Shown: in pieces, positions 1-2,594 of the stretch
Position numbering within the stretch: position 1 is the stretch's first letter
Layout: every line of letters starts with the position of its first letter
From: Dictyostelium discoideum
Taxonomy: Eukaryota
Assembly (NCBI GenBank): GCA_000004695.1
Contig: CH709149.1
Coordinates: 1 to 2,594 of the forward strand
DNA length: 2,594 bases
Reading direction: 5' to 3'
Position numbers and translations under genes: made by a program
Notes under the pieces: generated by a model
Databases searched by the model: none
What the model was told of the DNA's origin: nothing
What the model saw: the letters and a program-made list of their open reading frames with translations, nothing else

Positions 1-420
1 TTCTTCCTTAATTTTATTTAAAAACGATTCATTGCATTGGAAATTATCATATTTACGAGATAAGAAATCAGCTATAAAATTCTTTTTACCACTTATATGT
101 CTTAATTCATAATCAAATTCTTTAATATATTTCATATAATTATCTTGTCTCTTTGTGTACGTTTTATCGTTTGACTTATTGATAATATATGTAAGATTTT
201 GGTGATCAGTGTAGATTGAAACCTTTTTACCAATTAATAAATGTTGAAACTTCTTTAGAGAATCAATGATTGAAAGGAACTCTCTATCACCTATGCTGTA
301 CCTCTTTTGAGTGTCAGTAAGTTTTCTACTGTGGAGCCAAATGACTTTGAATTTATCACCTTGAATTTGATATAATACACCTGATAATGCTTTATCACTA
401 ACATCACAATACAAGTGAAA
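1..420 (-). CDS. Partial pol polyprotein: RNase H domain plus the integrase N-terminal linker. It is truncated at both ends (N-terminal RT missing, C-terminus off the window).
   Basis: Same frame as above. Recognisable homology starts at 'FHLYCD' (codon covering 420-418). Codons further upstream (421-546) are read-through of the tRNA-flank repeat and are not part of pol. Confidence 0.75.
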
Positions 421-423
421 ACT
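1..423 (-). mobile_element. 5'-truncated Ty3/gypsy-type LTR retrotransposon fragment (Skipper/DGLT-A-like). It retains RNase H and the start of the integrase linker and continues past the left edge of the window.
   Basis: The minus-strand frame reading 438->1 has no stop (146 codons). It translates to ...FHLYCDVSDKALSGVLYQIQGDKFKVIWLHSRKLTDTQKRYSIGDREFLSIIDSLKKFQHLLIGKKVSIYTDHQNLTYII...RHISGKKNFIADFLSRKYDNFQ.... These are the three RNase H catalytic blocks (D in 'CDVSD', E in 'DREFLSII', D in 'YTDHQNL') followed by the canonical Ty3/gypsy 'GKxNxxADxLSR' motif that precedes the integrase. No RT-coding sequence lies upstream; composition changes abruptly at ~423/424. Confidence 0.8.
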
Positions 424-461
424 ACCCTTTTCAGAAGTTCCGCGGATGGAATGTTTTATAT

Positions 462-473
462 GGGAATCGAACC
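462..473 (-). promoter_or_regulatory. External B box (ex-B), a TFIIIC-binding-type motif downstream of the tRNA-like gene.
   Basis: The minus strand reads GGTTCGATTCCC, which matches the tRNA B-box consensus GGTTCGANTCC. It sits 57 bp beyond the internal B box and ~30 bp beyond the T6 terminator, which is the arrangement described for Dictyostelium tRNA genes. No terminator or acceptor-like sequence follows it, so it is not a second tRNA. Confidence 0.6.
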
Positions 474-502
474 TGAGACCTCCCTTTCCGGAAGTTCCGT
501 TT

Positions 503-508
503 AAAAAA
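503..508 (-). terminator. Pol III oligo-T terminator (T6) immediately 3' of the tRNA-like gene.
   Basis: The plus strand is aaaaaa at 503-508, so the minus strand is TTTTTT, directly after the predicted discriminator base at 509. Confidence 0.5.
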
Positions 509-581
509 TGTTGCATATGGAAATCGAACCCGTGACCTCTTACATTCTAAGCTATCTATCTACCATATGAGCTAAATAAGC
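509..581 (-). tRNA. tRNA-like Pol III gene, probably a decayed tRNA pseudogene, with a possible AAT (Ile) anticodon loop. The acceptor stem is not complementary.
   Basis: Minus-strand sequence: GCTTATTTAGCTCATATGGTAGATAGATAGCTTAGAATGTAAGAGGTCACGGGTTCGATTTCCATATGCAACA. The A box TAGCTCATATGGTAGA is at 559-574 and the B box GGTTCGATTTCC at 519-530. There are 53 nt from the 5' end to the T loop, as in a class-I tRNA, and a T6 run follows. However, the 5' arm GCTTATT does not pair with the 3' arm ATGCAAC, the T stem ACGGG/TCCAT is weak, and the D region carries a tagatagatag slippage. The overall pattern resembles tRNA-Ile(AAT) with many C->T and G->A changes. Confidence 0.5.
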
Positions 582-621
582 TTTGATTATTTTTCATTAT
601 TAATAGCTGAAATATTAATGT

Positions 622-690
622 AAAAAAAGTGAGTAAGAAAAAAAACATCAACAACAACAACATTTTTCATATAAAAAAAAGACATAAAAA
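622..690 (+). repeat. Direct repeat copy 1 (~70 bp) with a (CAA)5 core and an A-rich tail.
   Basis: aaaaaaagtgagtaagaaaaaaaacatcaacaacaacaacatttttcatataaaaaaaagacataaaaataaaataaaa matches 797-880 at ~85% identity. Confidence 0.8.
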
Positions 691-796
691 TAAAATAAAA
701 TACACAAAGAGTAAATCATTGGCCTTCTTTATTTTAATGTAATTAATTTTTTCTTTTTTTTTGAAAACTTTGCGAAGGCAAATTGAAAAAAAAAAG

Positions 797-872
797 AAAA
801 AAATCTCAGTAAGAAAAAAACATCAACAACAACAACATTTTTATTGATATTTCATTTTCATATAAAAAAAGA

Positions 873-903
<31 letters not shown>
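797..903 (+). repeat. Direct repeat copy 2 (~75 bp plus a 16-bp internal insertion), ending in a pure A29 homopolymer (875-903).
   Basis: aaaaaaatctcagtaagaaaaaaacatcaacaacaacaacattttt[attgatatttcatttt]catataaaaaaagactaaaa... followed by 29 consecutive A residues. This looks like a retroposon oligo(A) tail. Confidence 0.8.
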
Positions 904-906
<3 letters not shown>

Positions 907-1257
907 ACCTCACTTATCAGAAATTTCAAATAATAAATGTCAGAGAGCATTTATCTCGATTGGTCAATAAACATTAAAATATTAACTAAGAAAAAGAATT
1001 CACCATATATATTAAATCCAACTTTGAAAAAAATTAAATCTCTTACGTATCTAGTAATACAATAGTAATCAGTTGCAAATCAGGATGGACAGGAGTTCAC
1101 ACCGACAGCATTCAAGTAGTTAGGGATGCTAGTAATTCATTCAAACAAACAAAAATAAAAAATTCCACAATTATTAGTATTACATCAAAATTTCCAGTTG
1201 ATCACAAAGAATATCTCACAACAATGTCCACTGAGTTAAAAAATAAATTCATCAAAT

Positions 1258-1737
1258 GTGAACCAGGAAATCAACCATTCTACCTTTACCCATATCGGAG
1301 TAAACACTGAATGGGAACCAGAATCTAAAATAAAAGCACTTAACGACTTCACTGTTATAAATATCACTAAATGGAAAATTTTAAAATATAAAGAATCTAT
1401 GGCCAAAGAAGAAAAAACCAATGAAAAACAACAAAAAACAAATAATAGTGACAATACATCTTTCACCTCTCCACCCAAAGATAAAGATGAACCATCACTC
1501 AATTTAAGTTCTCAATTCGAAGTTAGCATTTCTATGCTTAATACTGACTTTATCTTTGATGACTCTTCACCAATACCAAATAAATTATTAGAGCTGATTT
1601 CACCTGAACCAATTGTTTTTAGCATCAGAGAATTGGATTCTCCAACTAAAGATAACATACTAAATGAACTACTTTATCAACCAGAACAATCAATTTATGT
1701 TCCTCCTCCTCCCCTCCACCCCCTCCACCACAATTAA
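1258..1737 (+). CDS. ORF1-like hypothetical protein, Asn/Lys/Pro-rich. It probably needs a frameshift to join the frame-3 ORF at 1668-1978; the only in-frame ATG is at ~1399.
   Basis: This ORF comes from the six-frame track (it is GTG-initiated in the track). It ends in a poly-Pro/C-rich tract, tcctcctcctcccctccaccccctccacc. Third codon positions are A/T-biased, as in Dictyostelium coding DNA. No zinc knuckle or other motif was recognised. Confidence 0.35.
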   Translation: MNQEINHSTFTHIGVNTEWEPESKIKALNDFTVINITKWKILKYKESMAKEEKTNEKQQKTNNSDNTSFTSPPKDKDEPSLNLSSQFEVSISMLNTDFIFDDSSPIPNKLLELISPEPIVFSIRELDSPTKDNILNELLYQPEQSIYVPPPPLHPLHHN

Positions 1738-1978
1738 ACAAACCAAGCAGACCAAAATTCAACATTAAACAAAAAAAGATTAAAACGATCGAAGAAAATA
1801 TAGAGGAACACCTCAAAGATACTTTAAATAACTCATCAGAAACAATATCAACAAAGAGAAAATACCAGGAGGAGCCAAATCAAGAGAATGATCTCGAACA
1901 AATATCCACAATTATGAACAACAATTTACAAAAGATTAATAAAAACTTATCAATCTCACTAACTAATGAACACAAGTA
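1668..1978 (+). CDS. Likely continuation (C-terminal part) of ORF1 in frame 3, reached by a -1/+2 shift within the Pro-codon tract.
   Basis: Frame 3 is open from 1668 to the TAA at 1976-1978 (…PPPPPPQLNKPSRPKFNIKQKKIKTIEENIEEHLKDTLNNSSETISTKRKYQEEPNQENDLEQISTIMNNNLQKINKNLSISLTNEHK*). It overlaps the frame-1 ORF by 70 nt and has no ATG until 1912. Confidence 0.35.
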
Positions 1979-2148
1979 AGATAGCAATATGGAACGCCCA
2001 AGGACACAGCAAAGAAAAATGCACCTTTAAAGCCAATTTAAAGCAAATACAATTTAAATTTGCTTTAAATTGTGTAAAAGTCACTCACACTAATCTTCAA
2101 TCCATTGTCACATTTGTTCAATCTTTAATCAAACAGTCCAATCTTTAA
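1966..2148 (+). pseudogene. ORF2 remnant: the N-terminal 60 codons of an apurinic/apyrimidinic-endonuclease-like (APE) domain, after which the rest of ORF2 is deleted or decayed.
   Basis: MNTSKIAIWNAQGHSKEKCTFKANLKQIQFKFALNCVKVTHTNLQS...* The WN-x-x-G motif and a '..C.K.THtNL' block at the same spacing (~27 aa) as L1-type 'NINGL ... CIQETHL' support an APE start. The catalytic Glu position is Val. A stop follows at 2146-2148, and the remainder of the window is AT-rich non-coding. Confidence 0.45.
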
Positions 2149-2282
2149 AGTAATGTTTTTTAATATGAAGGATAGAAAGAGTGAAAGACTAATATCATAA
2201 AAGTAAACATACTTAAAAGAGATAATTAAAAGTAAGGGCGTTATGAGAACTAAACCGAAAATCAGAATTTTATTATTTTTTT

Positions 2283-2377
2283 TAAATTTTAATTTAATTT
2301 TTTTTTATTTAATTTAATTTTTTATTTTTCAACTGAAAAAATAAAAAATTAAAAAATAAAAATTAAAATTAAATGAA
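2283..2377. repeat. Long AT-only imperfect palindrome. A hairpin is centred on tttatttttc-AACT-gaaaaaataaa (centre ~2332), with arms of ~45 bp.
   Basis: The reverse complement of the left arm (gaaaaataaaaaattaaattaaataaaaaaaaattaaatt...) aligns with the right arm (gaaaaaataaaaaattaaaaaataaaaattaaaattaaat...) with a few indels. Confidence 0.55.
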
Positions 2378-2504
2378 ATATTTTTACATGGAGATGCGCG
2401 AATTTGTTACGTTGTTGAGCTCATACTAACTTTAAATTAATTTAGTTTTGAGTCTCTAACACCTTCCCCTTCCTTCTTTAGGCTAGCTTTGGCTTAGAGG
2501 TGGA

Positions 2505-2594
2505 CTATAATCTCTTCGGTGTAACTTTTCTTCCTGATCTTGTTGTTTTAATTTGTAAACTAAGATCAAGTTCATCATCATCACTTGAAGTATT
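2505..2594 (-). CDS. Possible C-terminal end (29 codons plus stop) of a minus-strand protein-coding gene that enters from the right edge.
   Basis: The minus frame reads ...NTSSDDDELDLSLQIKTTRSGRKVTPKRL* with the stop at 2507-2505. Third codon positions are strongly A/T-biased, as expected for Dictyostelium genes. It is very short, and a second frame is also open, so support is weak. Confidence 0.2.
   Translation of the reverse strand, partial: NTSSDDDELDLSLQIKTTRSGRKVTPKRL

What the first reader, a model, noticed from the sequence alone, without database searches (positions are those of the whole stretch)
1..2148. Two retroelement classes stacked around one Pol III (tRNA-type) gene: gypsy-like remnant downstream, non-LTR remnant upstream and head-to-head
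A minus-strand tRNA-like gene (509-581) is flanked on its 3' side by a Ty3/gypsy-type pol fragment (1-423, minus). On its 5' side lie poly(A)-ended repeat fragments (622-903) and a plus-strand non-LTR ORF1/ORF2 remnant (1224-2148). This is the arrangement expected when retroelements integrate using the Pol III transcription complex as a landmark, as known for the Dictyostelium TRE5 (upstream), TRE3 (downstream), DGLT-A and Skipper-2 families. The plus-strand non-LTR fragment has its 5' end facing the tRNA 5' end, which fits my recollection of the fixed TRE5/DRE orientation. A gypsy-type fragment that abuts the downstream ex-B region matches Skipper-2-like or TRE3-like site choice rather than the classical upstream DGLT-A position.
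Basis: partly seen in the sequence, partly recalled or inferred. Interest (0 to 1): 0.7.

Follow-up and report, generated by a model that had tools for sequence, protein, structure and literature searches.

The report
Dead TRE5 retrotransposon beside tRNA pseudogene
This is an ordinary piece of Dictyostelium discoideum repeat DNA: a decayed TRE5-type jumping gene sits at its textbook distance upstream of a worn-out tRNA gene, and the gypsy-type pieces on both sides are Skipper-1 fragments unrelated to the tRNA gene.

Summary
The window is D. discoideum repeat DNA. A decayed TRE5-type non-LTR element lies on the plus strand at about 629-2003. Its 5' end is 47-50 nt upstream of, and head-to-head with, a tRNA-derived Pol III unit (509-581, minus). 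That is the published TRE5 geometry, and two full-length relatives sit the same way at tRNA-Lys and tRNA-Glu genes.

The tRNA-like unit is not chance, but it is a pseudogene. All invariant nucleotides are in register, with B box, ex-B box and a T6 terminator. Only 12 of 21 stem pairs remain, and ARAGORN and Rfam find nothing.

The "poly(A)-ended repeat fragments" (622-903) are the element's own tandem 5'-UTR modules, not separate 3' ends. ORF1 starts at 937, not 1224.

The gypsy fragment (1-428) is Skipper-1: 90% identical to the published Dd_Skipper-1 RNase H, 36% to Skipper-2, 28% to DGLT-A. It is broken inside pol, so it marks no integration site, and Skipper-1 does not target tRNA genes.

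A second Skipper-1 piece was missed at 2073-2594: pol C-terminus, polypurine tract and a 389-nt 3' LTR.

This is a known kind of locus and of low interest.

The parts
1..428 (-). Skipper-1 (Ty3/gypsy chromovirus) pol fragment covering the RNase H domain and the start of the RNH-IN linker. It runs off the left edge and is broken at its 5' side inside pol.
   Evidence: Pfam RT_RNaseH E=5.8e-26. 92% nt identity to L005 10713-11138, with homology ending at 426-428. 109/121 aa identical to the Dd_Skipper-1 row of Fig S2 in PMC5006619, against 36% for Skipper-2 and 28% for DGLT-A.
425..538 (-). Two tandem 57-nt units (482-538 and 425-481, 77% identical). Each unit is tRNA positions 44-73 plus a 28-nt trailer. 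The distal unit supplies the ex-B box.
   Evidence: the repeat finder family D2. Local alignment score 45 against a shuffle maximum of 24.
463..473 (-). External B box (ex-B), GGTTCGATTCC, 35 nt downstream of the tRNA-like 3' end.
   Evidence: Exact match to GGTTCGANNCC. Ex-B boxes are present at about 80% of D. discoideum tRNA genes (PMC5911963).
503..508 (-). T6 run, a Pol III terminator-like signal directly after tRNA position 73.
   Evidence: Read from the sequence.
509..581 (-). tRNA-derived pseudogene of 73 nt, probably from tRNA-Ala(AGC). It has +1 G at 581, an A-box region at 564-574 and a B box at 520-530.
   Evidence: Invariant template in register, 0 hits in 20,000 simulated windows, but only 12/21 stem pairs. 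No ARAGORN or Rfam hit. MFE z=-0.12. 19/24 match to the AlaAGC-specific primer, next best 16/24.
582..628 (.). 47-nt spacer between tRNA position +1 and the TRE5 5' end.
   Evidence: Three-way alignment of the 5' junctions.
629..936 (+). TRE5-type 5' UTR. It holds about 1.5 tandem A-module-like repeats (632-807 and 808-903, the latter ending in A29 at 875-903) plus a 33-nt leader (904-936).
   Evidence: Collinear with L001 9645-10000 (1.5 modules) and L006 9427-10000 (2.5 modules), including the internal A run and the leader.
937..1979 (+). TRE5-type ORF1 remnant (ATG 937, stop 1977-1979). It has frameshifts near 985, 1271 and 1700-1780, and a deletion of about 190 nt near 1431.
   Evidence: tblastn of P0025, P0026 and P0027. 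Protein search E=8e-80 and 8e-79. 97% nt identity to L002-L004 over 1028-1431.
1966..2003 (+). First 13 codons or so of ORF2 (MNTSKIAIWNAQG), overlapping ORF1 by 14 nt. Homology to full-length ORF2 ends here.
   Evidence: L001 ORF2 starts MNTINIAIWNVQG. The nt alignment to L001 ends at 2003.
2004..2072 (.). Unassigned repeat fragment of 69 nt ('Y', homology from 2003).
   Evidence: 82% to L001 17150-17220 (rc), and also matches L008 3743-3781. The ORF2/Y junction is shared with Logan contigs L002-L003, identical over 1990-2033.
2073..2461 (-). Skipper-1 3' LTR, 389 nt, TG...CA.
   Evidence: Collinear with L007 12333-12660 and 6464-6722, and with a solo LTR in L001 (10776-11142) flanked by the 5-bp target-site duplication (TSD) GAGTG. 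The published Dd-Skipper-1 LTR is 390 bp.
2462..2479 (-). Polypurine tract AAAGAAGGAAGGGGAAGG, immediately 5' of the LTR.
   Evidence: Read from the sequence.
2505..2594 (-). C-terminal end of Skipper-1 pol (...NTSSDDDELDLSLQIKTTRSGRKVTPKRL*, stop 2507-2505). It runs off the right edge.
   Evidence: L007 has ENTSSGDDELDLSLQIKTTRSERKVTHKRL* directly downstream of integrase and a chromodomain-like stretch.

Best explanation
The locus is a decayed tRNA-gene/TRE5 insertion site that now lies among Skipper-1 fragments in D. discoideum repeat DNA.

Inferred history, following the published TRE5-A model. A Pol III transcription unit, most likely a tRNA-Ala(AGC) gene with an ex-B box, bound TFIIIC through its B boxes and positioned TFIIIB upstream. 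A TRE5-type L1-like retrotransposon, whose ORF1 protein contacts TFIIIB, integrated by target-primed reverse transcription 47-50 nt upstream of tRNA position +1, with its 5' end facing the tRNA 5' end.

Shown here:
- The geometry of the insertion.
- Homology of the element to full-length TRE5-type copies that sit the same way at intact tRNA genes.
- The A-rich repeats are the element's own tandem 5'-UTR modules.
- Both partners are dead. The element has frameshifts, a deletion, and no ORF2 beyond about codon 13. The tRNA has 12/21 stem pairs.

The Skipper-1 pieces on both sides arrived by a different route. They reflect chromodomain-guided integration into repeat-rich heterochromatin followed by rearrangement, not Pol III targeting. 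The right piece is a normal 3' LTR end. The left piece is a pol fragment joined about 80 nt downstream of the tRNA-like unit by a non-integrase event with 2-3 nt of microhomology.
For: - Organism and families: protein hits are 65-95% identical to D. discoideum proteins.
- TRE5 geometry: element start 629-632 against +1 G at 581. In L001 tRNA-Lys(UUU) is at c9521-9595 and the element starts at 9644-9646. In L006 tRNA-Glu(UUC) is at c9310-9382 and the element starts at about 9427 with TSD GTTTCGGTTTC. Both relatives carry an RVT_1 ORF2.
- Literature: TRE5 inserts 40-54 bp upstream, in opposite orientation, and depends on the B box.
- tRNA origin: invariant template gave 0/20,000 chance hits. B box and ex-B occur against 0.06 expected. 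T6 terminator present. 19/24 match to the AlaAGC primer.
- Skipper-1 identity: for the left piece; for the right piece, with LTR, polypurine tract and pol C-terminus.
- Skipper-1 is not tRNA-targeted.
Against: - The TRE5 3' end and its target-site duplication are missing, so in-situ integration rests on spacing and orientation alone.
- The tRNA-like unit is not recognised by any tRNA finder. It cannot be shown to have been a working gene when the element arrived.
- The TRE5 subfamily (A, B or C) could not be named. Three TRE5-A-specific primers do not match, and no reference TRE sequences were available.
- The same Skipper breakpoint recurs in another locus (L008 9570) and is unexplained.
Confidence: 0.82

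Rival explanations
1. The target was never a real tRNA gene. [quoted passage not shown]
For: There is no cloverleaf (12/21 pairs; z=-0.12) and no ARAGORN or Rfam hit. TRE5-A integrates 37-50 bp upstream of the +1 G of non-tRNA A/B-box loci (PMC5391098).
Against: The unit has exact tRNA length and register, with T8, A14, G18G19, A21, T33, T54T55C56 and A58 all in place. It matches a tRNA-Ala(AGC)-specific primer 19/24. The rDNA loci are described as having no similarity to tRNA genes beyond the boxes.
Confidence: 0.1
2. The gypsy fragment was also placed by Pol III-directed targeting downstream of the tRNA gene, in the manner of Skipper-2 or TRE3, so two element classes used the same landmark.
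For: The fragment lies 80 nt downstream of the tRNA-like 3' end and 34 nt beyond the ex-B box, in the same orientation as the tRNA. This falls numerically inside the TRE3 window of 40-150 bp.
Against: The fragment is 90% identical to Skipper-1 and only 36% to Skipper-2. The junction is inside pol, not at an LTR end. D. discoideum Skipper-2 inserts 8-23 bp downstream. Skipper-1 shows no tRNA association. No TRE3 sequence is present. A second Skipper-1 piece at 2073-2594 shows that the region is simply Skipper-rich.
Confidence: 0.03
3. The juxtaposition is secondary. Segmental duplication, recombination between repeats or an assembly join brought a TRE5 5' end next to a tRNA-like sequence, and the 47-nt spacing is coincidence.
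For: The region is a mosaic of fragments. The TRE5-ORF2/Y junction is shared with another genomic copy (L002-L004), which shows block duplication. Related loci L005, L007 and L008 are patchworks.
Against: The spacing and orientation match the narrow TRE5 window exactly, and match two independent full-length copies at intact tRNA genes. The element's 5' terminus coincides with the family's 5' terminus to within about 3 nt.
Confidence: 0.05

Closest known systems
TRE5 family (TRE5-A/B/C, formerly DRE) of D. discoideum, L1-like tRNA gene-targeted non-LTR retrotransposons
   Same: The element has two overlapping ORFs, a 5' UTR built of tandem modules of about 200 nt, a position 47-50 nt upstream of a Pol III unit and a head-to-head orientation. 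Full-length relatives with an RT-bearing ORF2 sit at intact tRNA genes with target-site duplications.
   Different: This copy is dead and truncated, with ORF2 lost after about 13 codons and no 3' end. It is not TRE5-A by the primer test. Its full-length relatives lack the 3' B-module of TRE5-A.1, so it is closer to the B or C type, but the subfamily was not resolved.
Skipper-1 (Skipper), Ty3/gypsy chromovirus of D. discoideum
   Same: The RNase H is 90% identical to the published Dd_Skipper-1 sequence. The 389-nt LTR (published 390) runs TG...CA with a polypurine tract in front. The pol C-terminus is collinear with integrase plus chromodomain copies, and neighbouring loci also carry DIRS-1-type (tyrosine recombinase) genes.
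   Different: Only fragments are present. The left piece is broken inside pol, and the two pieces are not in the order expected of a single element.
D. discoideum tRNA genes with an external B box, and the TRE5-A-targeted A/B-box loci of the rDNA palindrome
   Same: The unit has +1 G, an A-box region at +8, a B box, a T-run terminator and an ex-B about 35 nt downstream. A TRE5 element lies at about 47 nt.
   Different: The cloverleaf is lost. The A box matches only 6 of the 8 specified positions of the D. discoideum consensus TRRYNNARYNG. The ex-B here is a 57-nt tandem duplicate of the tRNA 3' third plus trailer, which is not seen at the two intact tRNA genes examined.
   Same: They belong to the same superfamily (Ty3/gypsy) and share the RT_RNaseH fold.
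   Different: RNase H identity is only 36% and 28%. They insert with LTR ends 8-23 bp downstream or 13-33 bp upstream of tRNA genes. Here an internal pol sequence lies 80 nt downstream.

Membership tests
TRE5 (tRNA gene-targeted non-LTR retrotransposon, upstream type) | Integration 40-54 bp upstream of the tRNA mature coding sequence | tested here: met
   The element starts at 629-632 and tRNA-like +1 is at 581, leaving 47-50 nt. Relatives sit 48-50 nt (L001) and about 44 nt (L006) upstream.
TRE5 (tRNA gene-targeted non-LTR retrotransposon, upstream type) | Fixed orientation, with the element's 5' end facing the tRNA 5' end | tested here: met
   The element is on the plus strand and the tRNA-like unit on the minus strand. 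L001 and L006 are arranged the same way. The rule is stated in PMC5391098.
TRE5 (tRNA gene-targeted non-LTR retrotransposon, upstream type) | ORF1 plus an overlapping ORF2 that encodes APE endonuclease and reverse transcriptase | tested here: inconclusive
   The window keeps ORF1 (decayed) and only about 13 codons of ORF2, with a 14-nt overlap. The full-length relatives L001 and L006 have RVT_1 ORF2 products of 1000 and 1069 aa.
TRE5 (tRNA gene-targeted non-LTR retrotransposon, upstream type) | Oligo(A) 3' end and target-site duplication | not testable with these tools
   The 3' end is absent from the window. The relative L006 has an A9 end and TSD GTTTCGGTTTC.
TRE5-A specifically | AB-ORF1/ORF2-BC architecture and sequence identity to TRE5-A | tested here: not met
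   The TRE5-A-specific primers Rep-190, Rep-109Q and Rep-157Q have no match in the window, L001 or L006 elements. The full-length relatives show no 3' copy of the 5' region. No reference sequence was available for a direct alignment.
Skipper-1 | Pol sequence identity to Dd_Skipper-1 | tested here: met
   109/121 RNase H residues are identical to the Dd_Skipper-1 row of Fig S2 in PMC5006619. The left piece is 92% identical in nt to L005.
Skipper-1 | LTR of about 390 bp, TG...CA, preceded by a polypurine tract, with 5-bp TSDs | tested here: met
   The LTR at 2461->2073 is 389 nt and the polypurine tract is at 2462-2479. A solo LTR in L001 has TSD GAGTG. The TSD of the window copy lies outside the window.
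Skipper-2 / DGLT-A (tRNA-targeting gypsy elements) | Sequence identity to the family, and an LTR end 8-23 bp downstream or 13-33 bp upstream of a tRNA gene | tested here: not met
   RNase H identity is 36% and 28%. The junction is an internal pol breakpoint 80 nt downstream.
TRE3 (downstream-targeting non-LTR) | [quoted passage not shown] | tested here: not met
   Positions 429-508 hold only the tRNA trailer and the ex-B duplicate. No non-LTR homology lies downstream of the tRNA-like unit.
Functional tRNA gene | Cloverleaf-forming sequence recognised by tRNA models | tested here: not met
   ARAGORN finds none. Rfam finds none at E<=10. Only 12/21 pairs survive and MFE z=-0.12.
Pol III type-2 promoter unit (A box, B box, terminator) | +1 G, A box at +8, B box 30-60 bp downstream, T-run | tested here: met
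   +1 G is at 581. The A-box region TAGCTCATATG fits the permissive TNNNNNANNNG and 6 of 8 specified positions of TRRYNNARYNG. The B box matches 10/11, the ex-B 11/11, and a T6 run follows (consensus). Occupancy by TFIIIC was not tested.

The most novel reading that the evidence does not exclude
The left Skipper-1 piece might not be rearrangement debris. It could be a 5'-truncated retro-copy of Skipper RNA placed by a TRE3-type (LINE) machinery.

Points in favour:
- It has the same orientation as the tRNA-like unit.
- It starts 80 nt downstream of that unit and 34 nt beyond the ex-B box, which is TRE3 geometry.
- It is joined with 2-3 nt of microhomology.
- A second locus (L008) carries a Skipper fragment that starts at the same nucleotide.

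If true, this would be LINE-mediated trans-mobilisation of an LTR-retrotransposon transcript to a Pol III landmark.
Probability: 0.04. Interest if true: 0.5.

Novelty: already known. Interest (0 to 1): 0.12.

Why it matters
It matters little beyond annotation. TRE5 elements about 48 bp upstream of tRNA genes, and Skipper fragments in repeat clusters, have been described in D. discoideum for decades.

The useful results are corrections:
- The tRNA-like unit is a pseudogene that still carries Pol III promoter boxes.
- The A-rich repeats are a 5'-UTR module array, not separate insertions.
- The gypsy fragments are Skipper-1 and say nothing about Pol III-directed targeting.

If the pseudogene still binds TFIIIC, it would be one more example of a non-coding A/B-box site that TRE5 elements can read.

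Tried and rejected
- ARAGORN in default and relaxed modes gave no tRNA at 509-581. The two intron-containing calls at -ps80 are spurious.
- Rfam on the whole window at E<=1, and on 400-640 at E<=10, gave only two chance hits.
- Pfam on the ORF1 and ORF2 remnants gave nothing significant. TRE5 ORF1 has no Pfam family.
- Exact-product look-ups of three window ORFs, meant to find the source contig, gave nothing on record.
- Glöckner et al. 2001 (complex repeats of D. discoideum) is not held in the library. The supplement of PMC5006619 holds no TRE sequences as text.
- Subfamily naming with TRE5-A primers was negative, so A, B or C remains unresolved.
- I tested whether the sequence upstream of the shared Skipper breakpoint in L008 is homologous to the window's tRNA-like region. 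It is not (score 19 against a shuffle mean of 19.7).
- I tested whether 2003-2165 is a TRE5 3' UTR or C-module, as in an ORF2-deleted TRE5-A.2-like derivative. There is no convincing alignment to the 3' ends of L001 or L006, and 2073 onward is Skipper LTR.
- The weak tblastn match of ORF2 out to 2100 (35% identity) is rejected as chance beyond codon 13.
- The third protein-database search, the representative search, structure prediction and collection scans were not used. They could not change the verdict.
Full report
**Source and overall picture.** The window is AT-rich. Every coding remnant in it finds its best relatives among Dictyostelium discoideum proteins, at 65-95% identity. Related DNA was fetched from a D. 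discoideum assembly (GCA_054859355.1; loci L001, L005-L008) and from Logan contigs that encode the AX4 protein DDB_G0294178 (L002-L004). Read from left to right, the window is a mosaic:
- a Skipper-1 pol fragment (1-428, minus)
- a tRNA-derived pseudogene with a duplicated 3' part (425-581, minus)
- a 47-nt spacer
- a decayed TRE5-type non-LTR element (629-2003, plus)
- an unassigned fragment of about 70 nt (2003-2072)
- the 3' end of a second Skipper-1 copy (2073-2594, minus)

**The tRNA-like unit.**
- ARAGORN finds no tRNA in the window.
- Rfam finds none at E<=1 on the whole window, nor at E<=10 on 400-640.
- The sequence is nevertheless tRNA-derived and not a chance A/B-box match. On the minus strand, 581->509 is 73 nt long. 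T8, A14, G18G19, A21, T33, the purine at 37 and G53-T54-T55-C56-R57-A58 are all in Sprinzl register. A template of these positions matched nowhere else in the window and in none of 20,000 first-order Markov simulations of it.
- The B-box consensus GGTTCGANNCC occurs at 520-530 with one mismatch and at 463-473 exactly. Only 0.06 matches are expected by chance.
- A T6 run (503-508) follows position 73.
- Only 12 of 21 cloverleaf pairs can form. The RNA folds no better than shuffles (z=-0.12). It is therefore a pseudogene.
- Against the 33 family-specific D. discoideum tRNA primers in S1 Table of PMC5391098, the best match is AlaAGC (19/24) and the next is ThrAGU (16/24). A tRNA-Ala(AGC) origin is a reasonable lead, with the anticodon now reading AGA.
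- The ex-B box is unusual. It lies in a 57-nt tandem duplicate (425-481) of tRNA positions 44-73 plus the 28-nt trailer (482-538), at 77% identity. The local score is 45 against a shuffle maximum of 24. At the intact tRNA-Lys and tRNA-Glu genes of L001 and L006, the ex-B resembles the gene's own T-arm over only about 15 nt.

**The non-LTR element.**
- ORF1 starts at ATG 937 (MSESIYLDW..., compare P0025 MSESNLISDW...), not at 1224. It ends at 1977-1979.
- tblastn of P0025, P0026 and P0027 shows frame changes near 985, 1271 and 1700-1780, and a deletion of about 190 nt near 1431.
- ORF2 starts at 1966 (MNTSKIAIWNAQG; L001 has MNTINIAIWNVQG) and overlaps ORF1 by 14 nt. Homology to full-length ORF2 stops at about 2003.
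- The decisive comparison is with two full-length relatives. In L001 the element starts at 9644-9646, which is 48-50 nt from the 5' end of a minus-strand tRNA-Lys(UUU) gene (c9521-9595). In L006 it starts at about 9427, which is about 44 nt from tRNA-Glu(UUC) (c9310-9382). The L006 copy is bounded by the target-site duplication GTTTCGGTTTC. Both have ORF2 products with RVT_1.
- In the window, shared element sequence begins at 629-632, which is 47-50 nt from +1 G at 581, again head-to-head.
- This matches the published rule. TRE5 elements integrate 40-54 bp upstream of tRNA genes with the element's 5' end facing the tRNA 5' end, integration depends on the B box, and non-tRNA A/B-box sites are also used at 37-50 bp (PMC5391098 and PMC5911963).

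**The "poly(A)-ended repeat fragments".** The two repeats 176 nt apart and the A29 run at 875-903 are real. They are collinear with the 5' UTRs of L001 (1.5 modules of about 205 nt) and L006 (2.5 modules). Both relatives also have the internal A run, followed by a homologous short leader and the ORF1 ATG. The repeats are therefore the element's own tandem A-module-like 5'-UTR array, not stacked 3' ends of other insertions.

**Subfamily.**
- Three TRE5-A-specific primers do not match the window, L001 or L006.
- The full-length relatives lack a 3' copy of their 5' region, unlike TRE5-A.1 (AB-ORF1/ORF2-BC).
- L006 has, after the ORF2 stop, an A57 run followed by 125 nt and A9. This resembles the 3'-transduced C-module described for TRE5-A and TRE5-C, but that reading is inference.
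- I therefore call the element TRE5-type, not TRE5-A, with the subfamily unresolved.

**The gypsy fragments.**
- The minus strand of 1-428 encodes an RNase H domain (Pfam RT_RNaseH E=5.8e-26).
- It is 109/121 identical to the Dd_Skipper-1 row of the RNase H alignment in the supplement of PMC5006619, against 36% for the Dd_Skipper-2 row and 28% for the Dd_DGLT-A row. That text was read by machine, so the figures are approximate.
- It is 92% identical in nt to a Skipper copy in L005. Homology stops at 426-428, inside pol, where canonical Skipper continues upstream. This is not an LTR terminus, so it cannot mark an integrase-made insertion site.
- Skipper-1 has no tRNA-gene association and accumulates at centromeres. 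Skipper-2 inserts 8-23 bp downstream and DGLT-A 13-33 bp upstream of tRNA genes.
It holds the last 29 codons of pol (collinear with an integrase plus chromodomain-like copy in L007), a stop at 2507-2505, an 18-nt polypurine tract (2462-2479) and a 389-nt LTR (TG...CA, 2461->2073). The published LTR length is 390 bp.
- The same LTR occurs as a solo copy with the 5-bp duplication GAGTG inside ORF1 of the L001 TRE5 element, where the gene model treats it as an intron.
- It follows that the 60-aa ORF at 1966-2148 is a chimera of 13 ORF2 codons, the unassigned fragment and antisense LTR.

**Mechanism.**
- Shown: the geometry, the family relationships and the decay of both partners.
- Inferred from the published TRE5-A model: TFIIIC bound to the B and ex-B boxes positions TFIIIB upstream. 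The TRE5 pre-integration complex contacts TFIIIB through ORF1 protein and integrates by target-primed reverse transcription at about 48 bp.
- The Skipper-1 pieces reflect a different route, namely chromodomain-guided accumulation in repeat-rich DNA followed by rearrangement. Neighbouring related loci are similar patchworks that also hold tyrosine-recombinase (DIRS-type) genes.

**What remains open.**
- Whether the tRNA gene was intact when the element arrived.
- Which TRE5 subfamily this is.
- What the 70-nt fragment at 2003-2072 is. Its junction with ORF2 is shared with another genomic copy, L002-L004, identical over 1990-2033.
- Why a Skipper fragment in L008 starts at the same nucleotide as the one here, with an unrelated upstream partner.
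- The left Skipper piece has TRE3-like geometry: same orientation as the tRNA-like unit, 80 nt downstream of it and 34 nt beyond the ex-B. A LINE-mediated retro-copy is therefore not excluded, but there is no positive evidence for it.

**Verdict.** The TRE5/tRNA half is a textbook case. The gypsy half is coincidental Skipper-1 debris. This is a known kind of locus and of low interest.

Noticed in passing
L001 10776-11142: A solo Skipper-1 LTR (367 nt, TG...CA) with the 5-bp target-site duplication GAGTG sits inside ORF1 of a full-length TRE5-type element. The deposited gene model (P0025) splices it out as an intron.
   Followed up: yes
L008 9570 compared with window 426-428: A Skipper-1 RNase H fragment in another locus starts at the same nucleotide (GGTAGTTTTCAC) as the one in the window. 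Its upstream partner is unrelated (alignment score at shuffle level). The breakpoint is either recurrent or inherited, and is unexplained.
   Followed up: partly
window 425-538: The ex-B box of this tRNA-like unit is a 57-nt tandem duplicate of the tRNA 3' third plus its trailer. At two intact tRNA genes (L001 tRNA-Lys, L006 tRNA-Glu) the ex-B resembles the T-arm over only about 15 nt. This may hint at how ex-B boxes arise.
   Followed up: partly
window 2003-2072: An A/T-rich, partly palindromic fragment of 70 nt has no assigned family. It recurs at L001 17150-17220 (rc, 82%) and L008 3743-3781. Its junction with TRE5 ORF2 codon 13 is shared with Logan contigs L002-L003 (identical over 1990-2033) and L004 (to 2009), so the composite has been copied as a block.
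   Followed up: partly
L006 9427-14807: This is an apparently intact TRE5-type copy of 5.4 kb at tRNA-Glu(UUC). It has TSD GTTTCGGTTTC, 2.5 tandem 5' modules of about 205 nt, and after the ORF2 stop an A57 run followed by 125 nt and A9. That arrangement looks like a 3'-transduced C-module. There is no 3' B-module.
   Followed up: partly
window 2288-2378: Inside the Skipper-1 LTR lies a 42-nt A/T-rich inverted repeat (2288-2329 / 2337-2378, 83% complementary, 7-nt loop). The A/T-rich LTR core, with variable TTAAA/TTAAAT-type repeats, is also present in the L001 and L007 copies.
   Followed up: no
L001 15690-15965: Two successive A runs are each followed by GTTAATTAT and preceded by similar sequence (…GAGTGCACTGTAATTTA…). 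This looks like a tandem duplication of the 3' end and flank downstream of the TRE5-type element.
   Followed up: no
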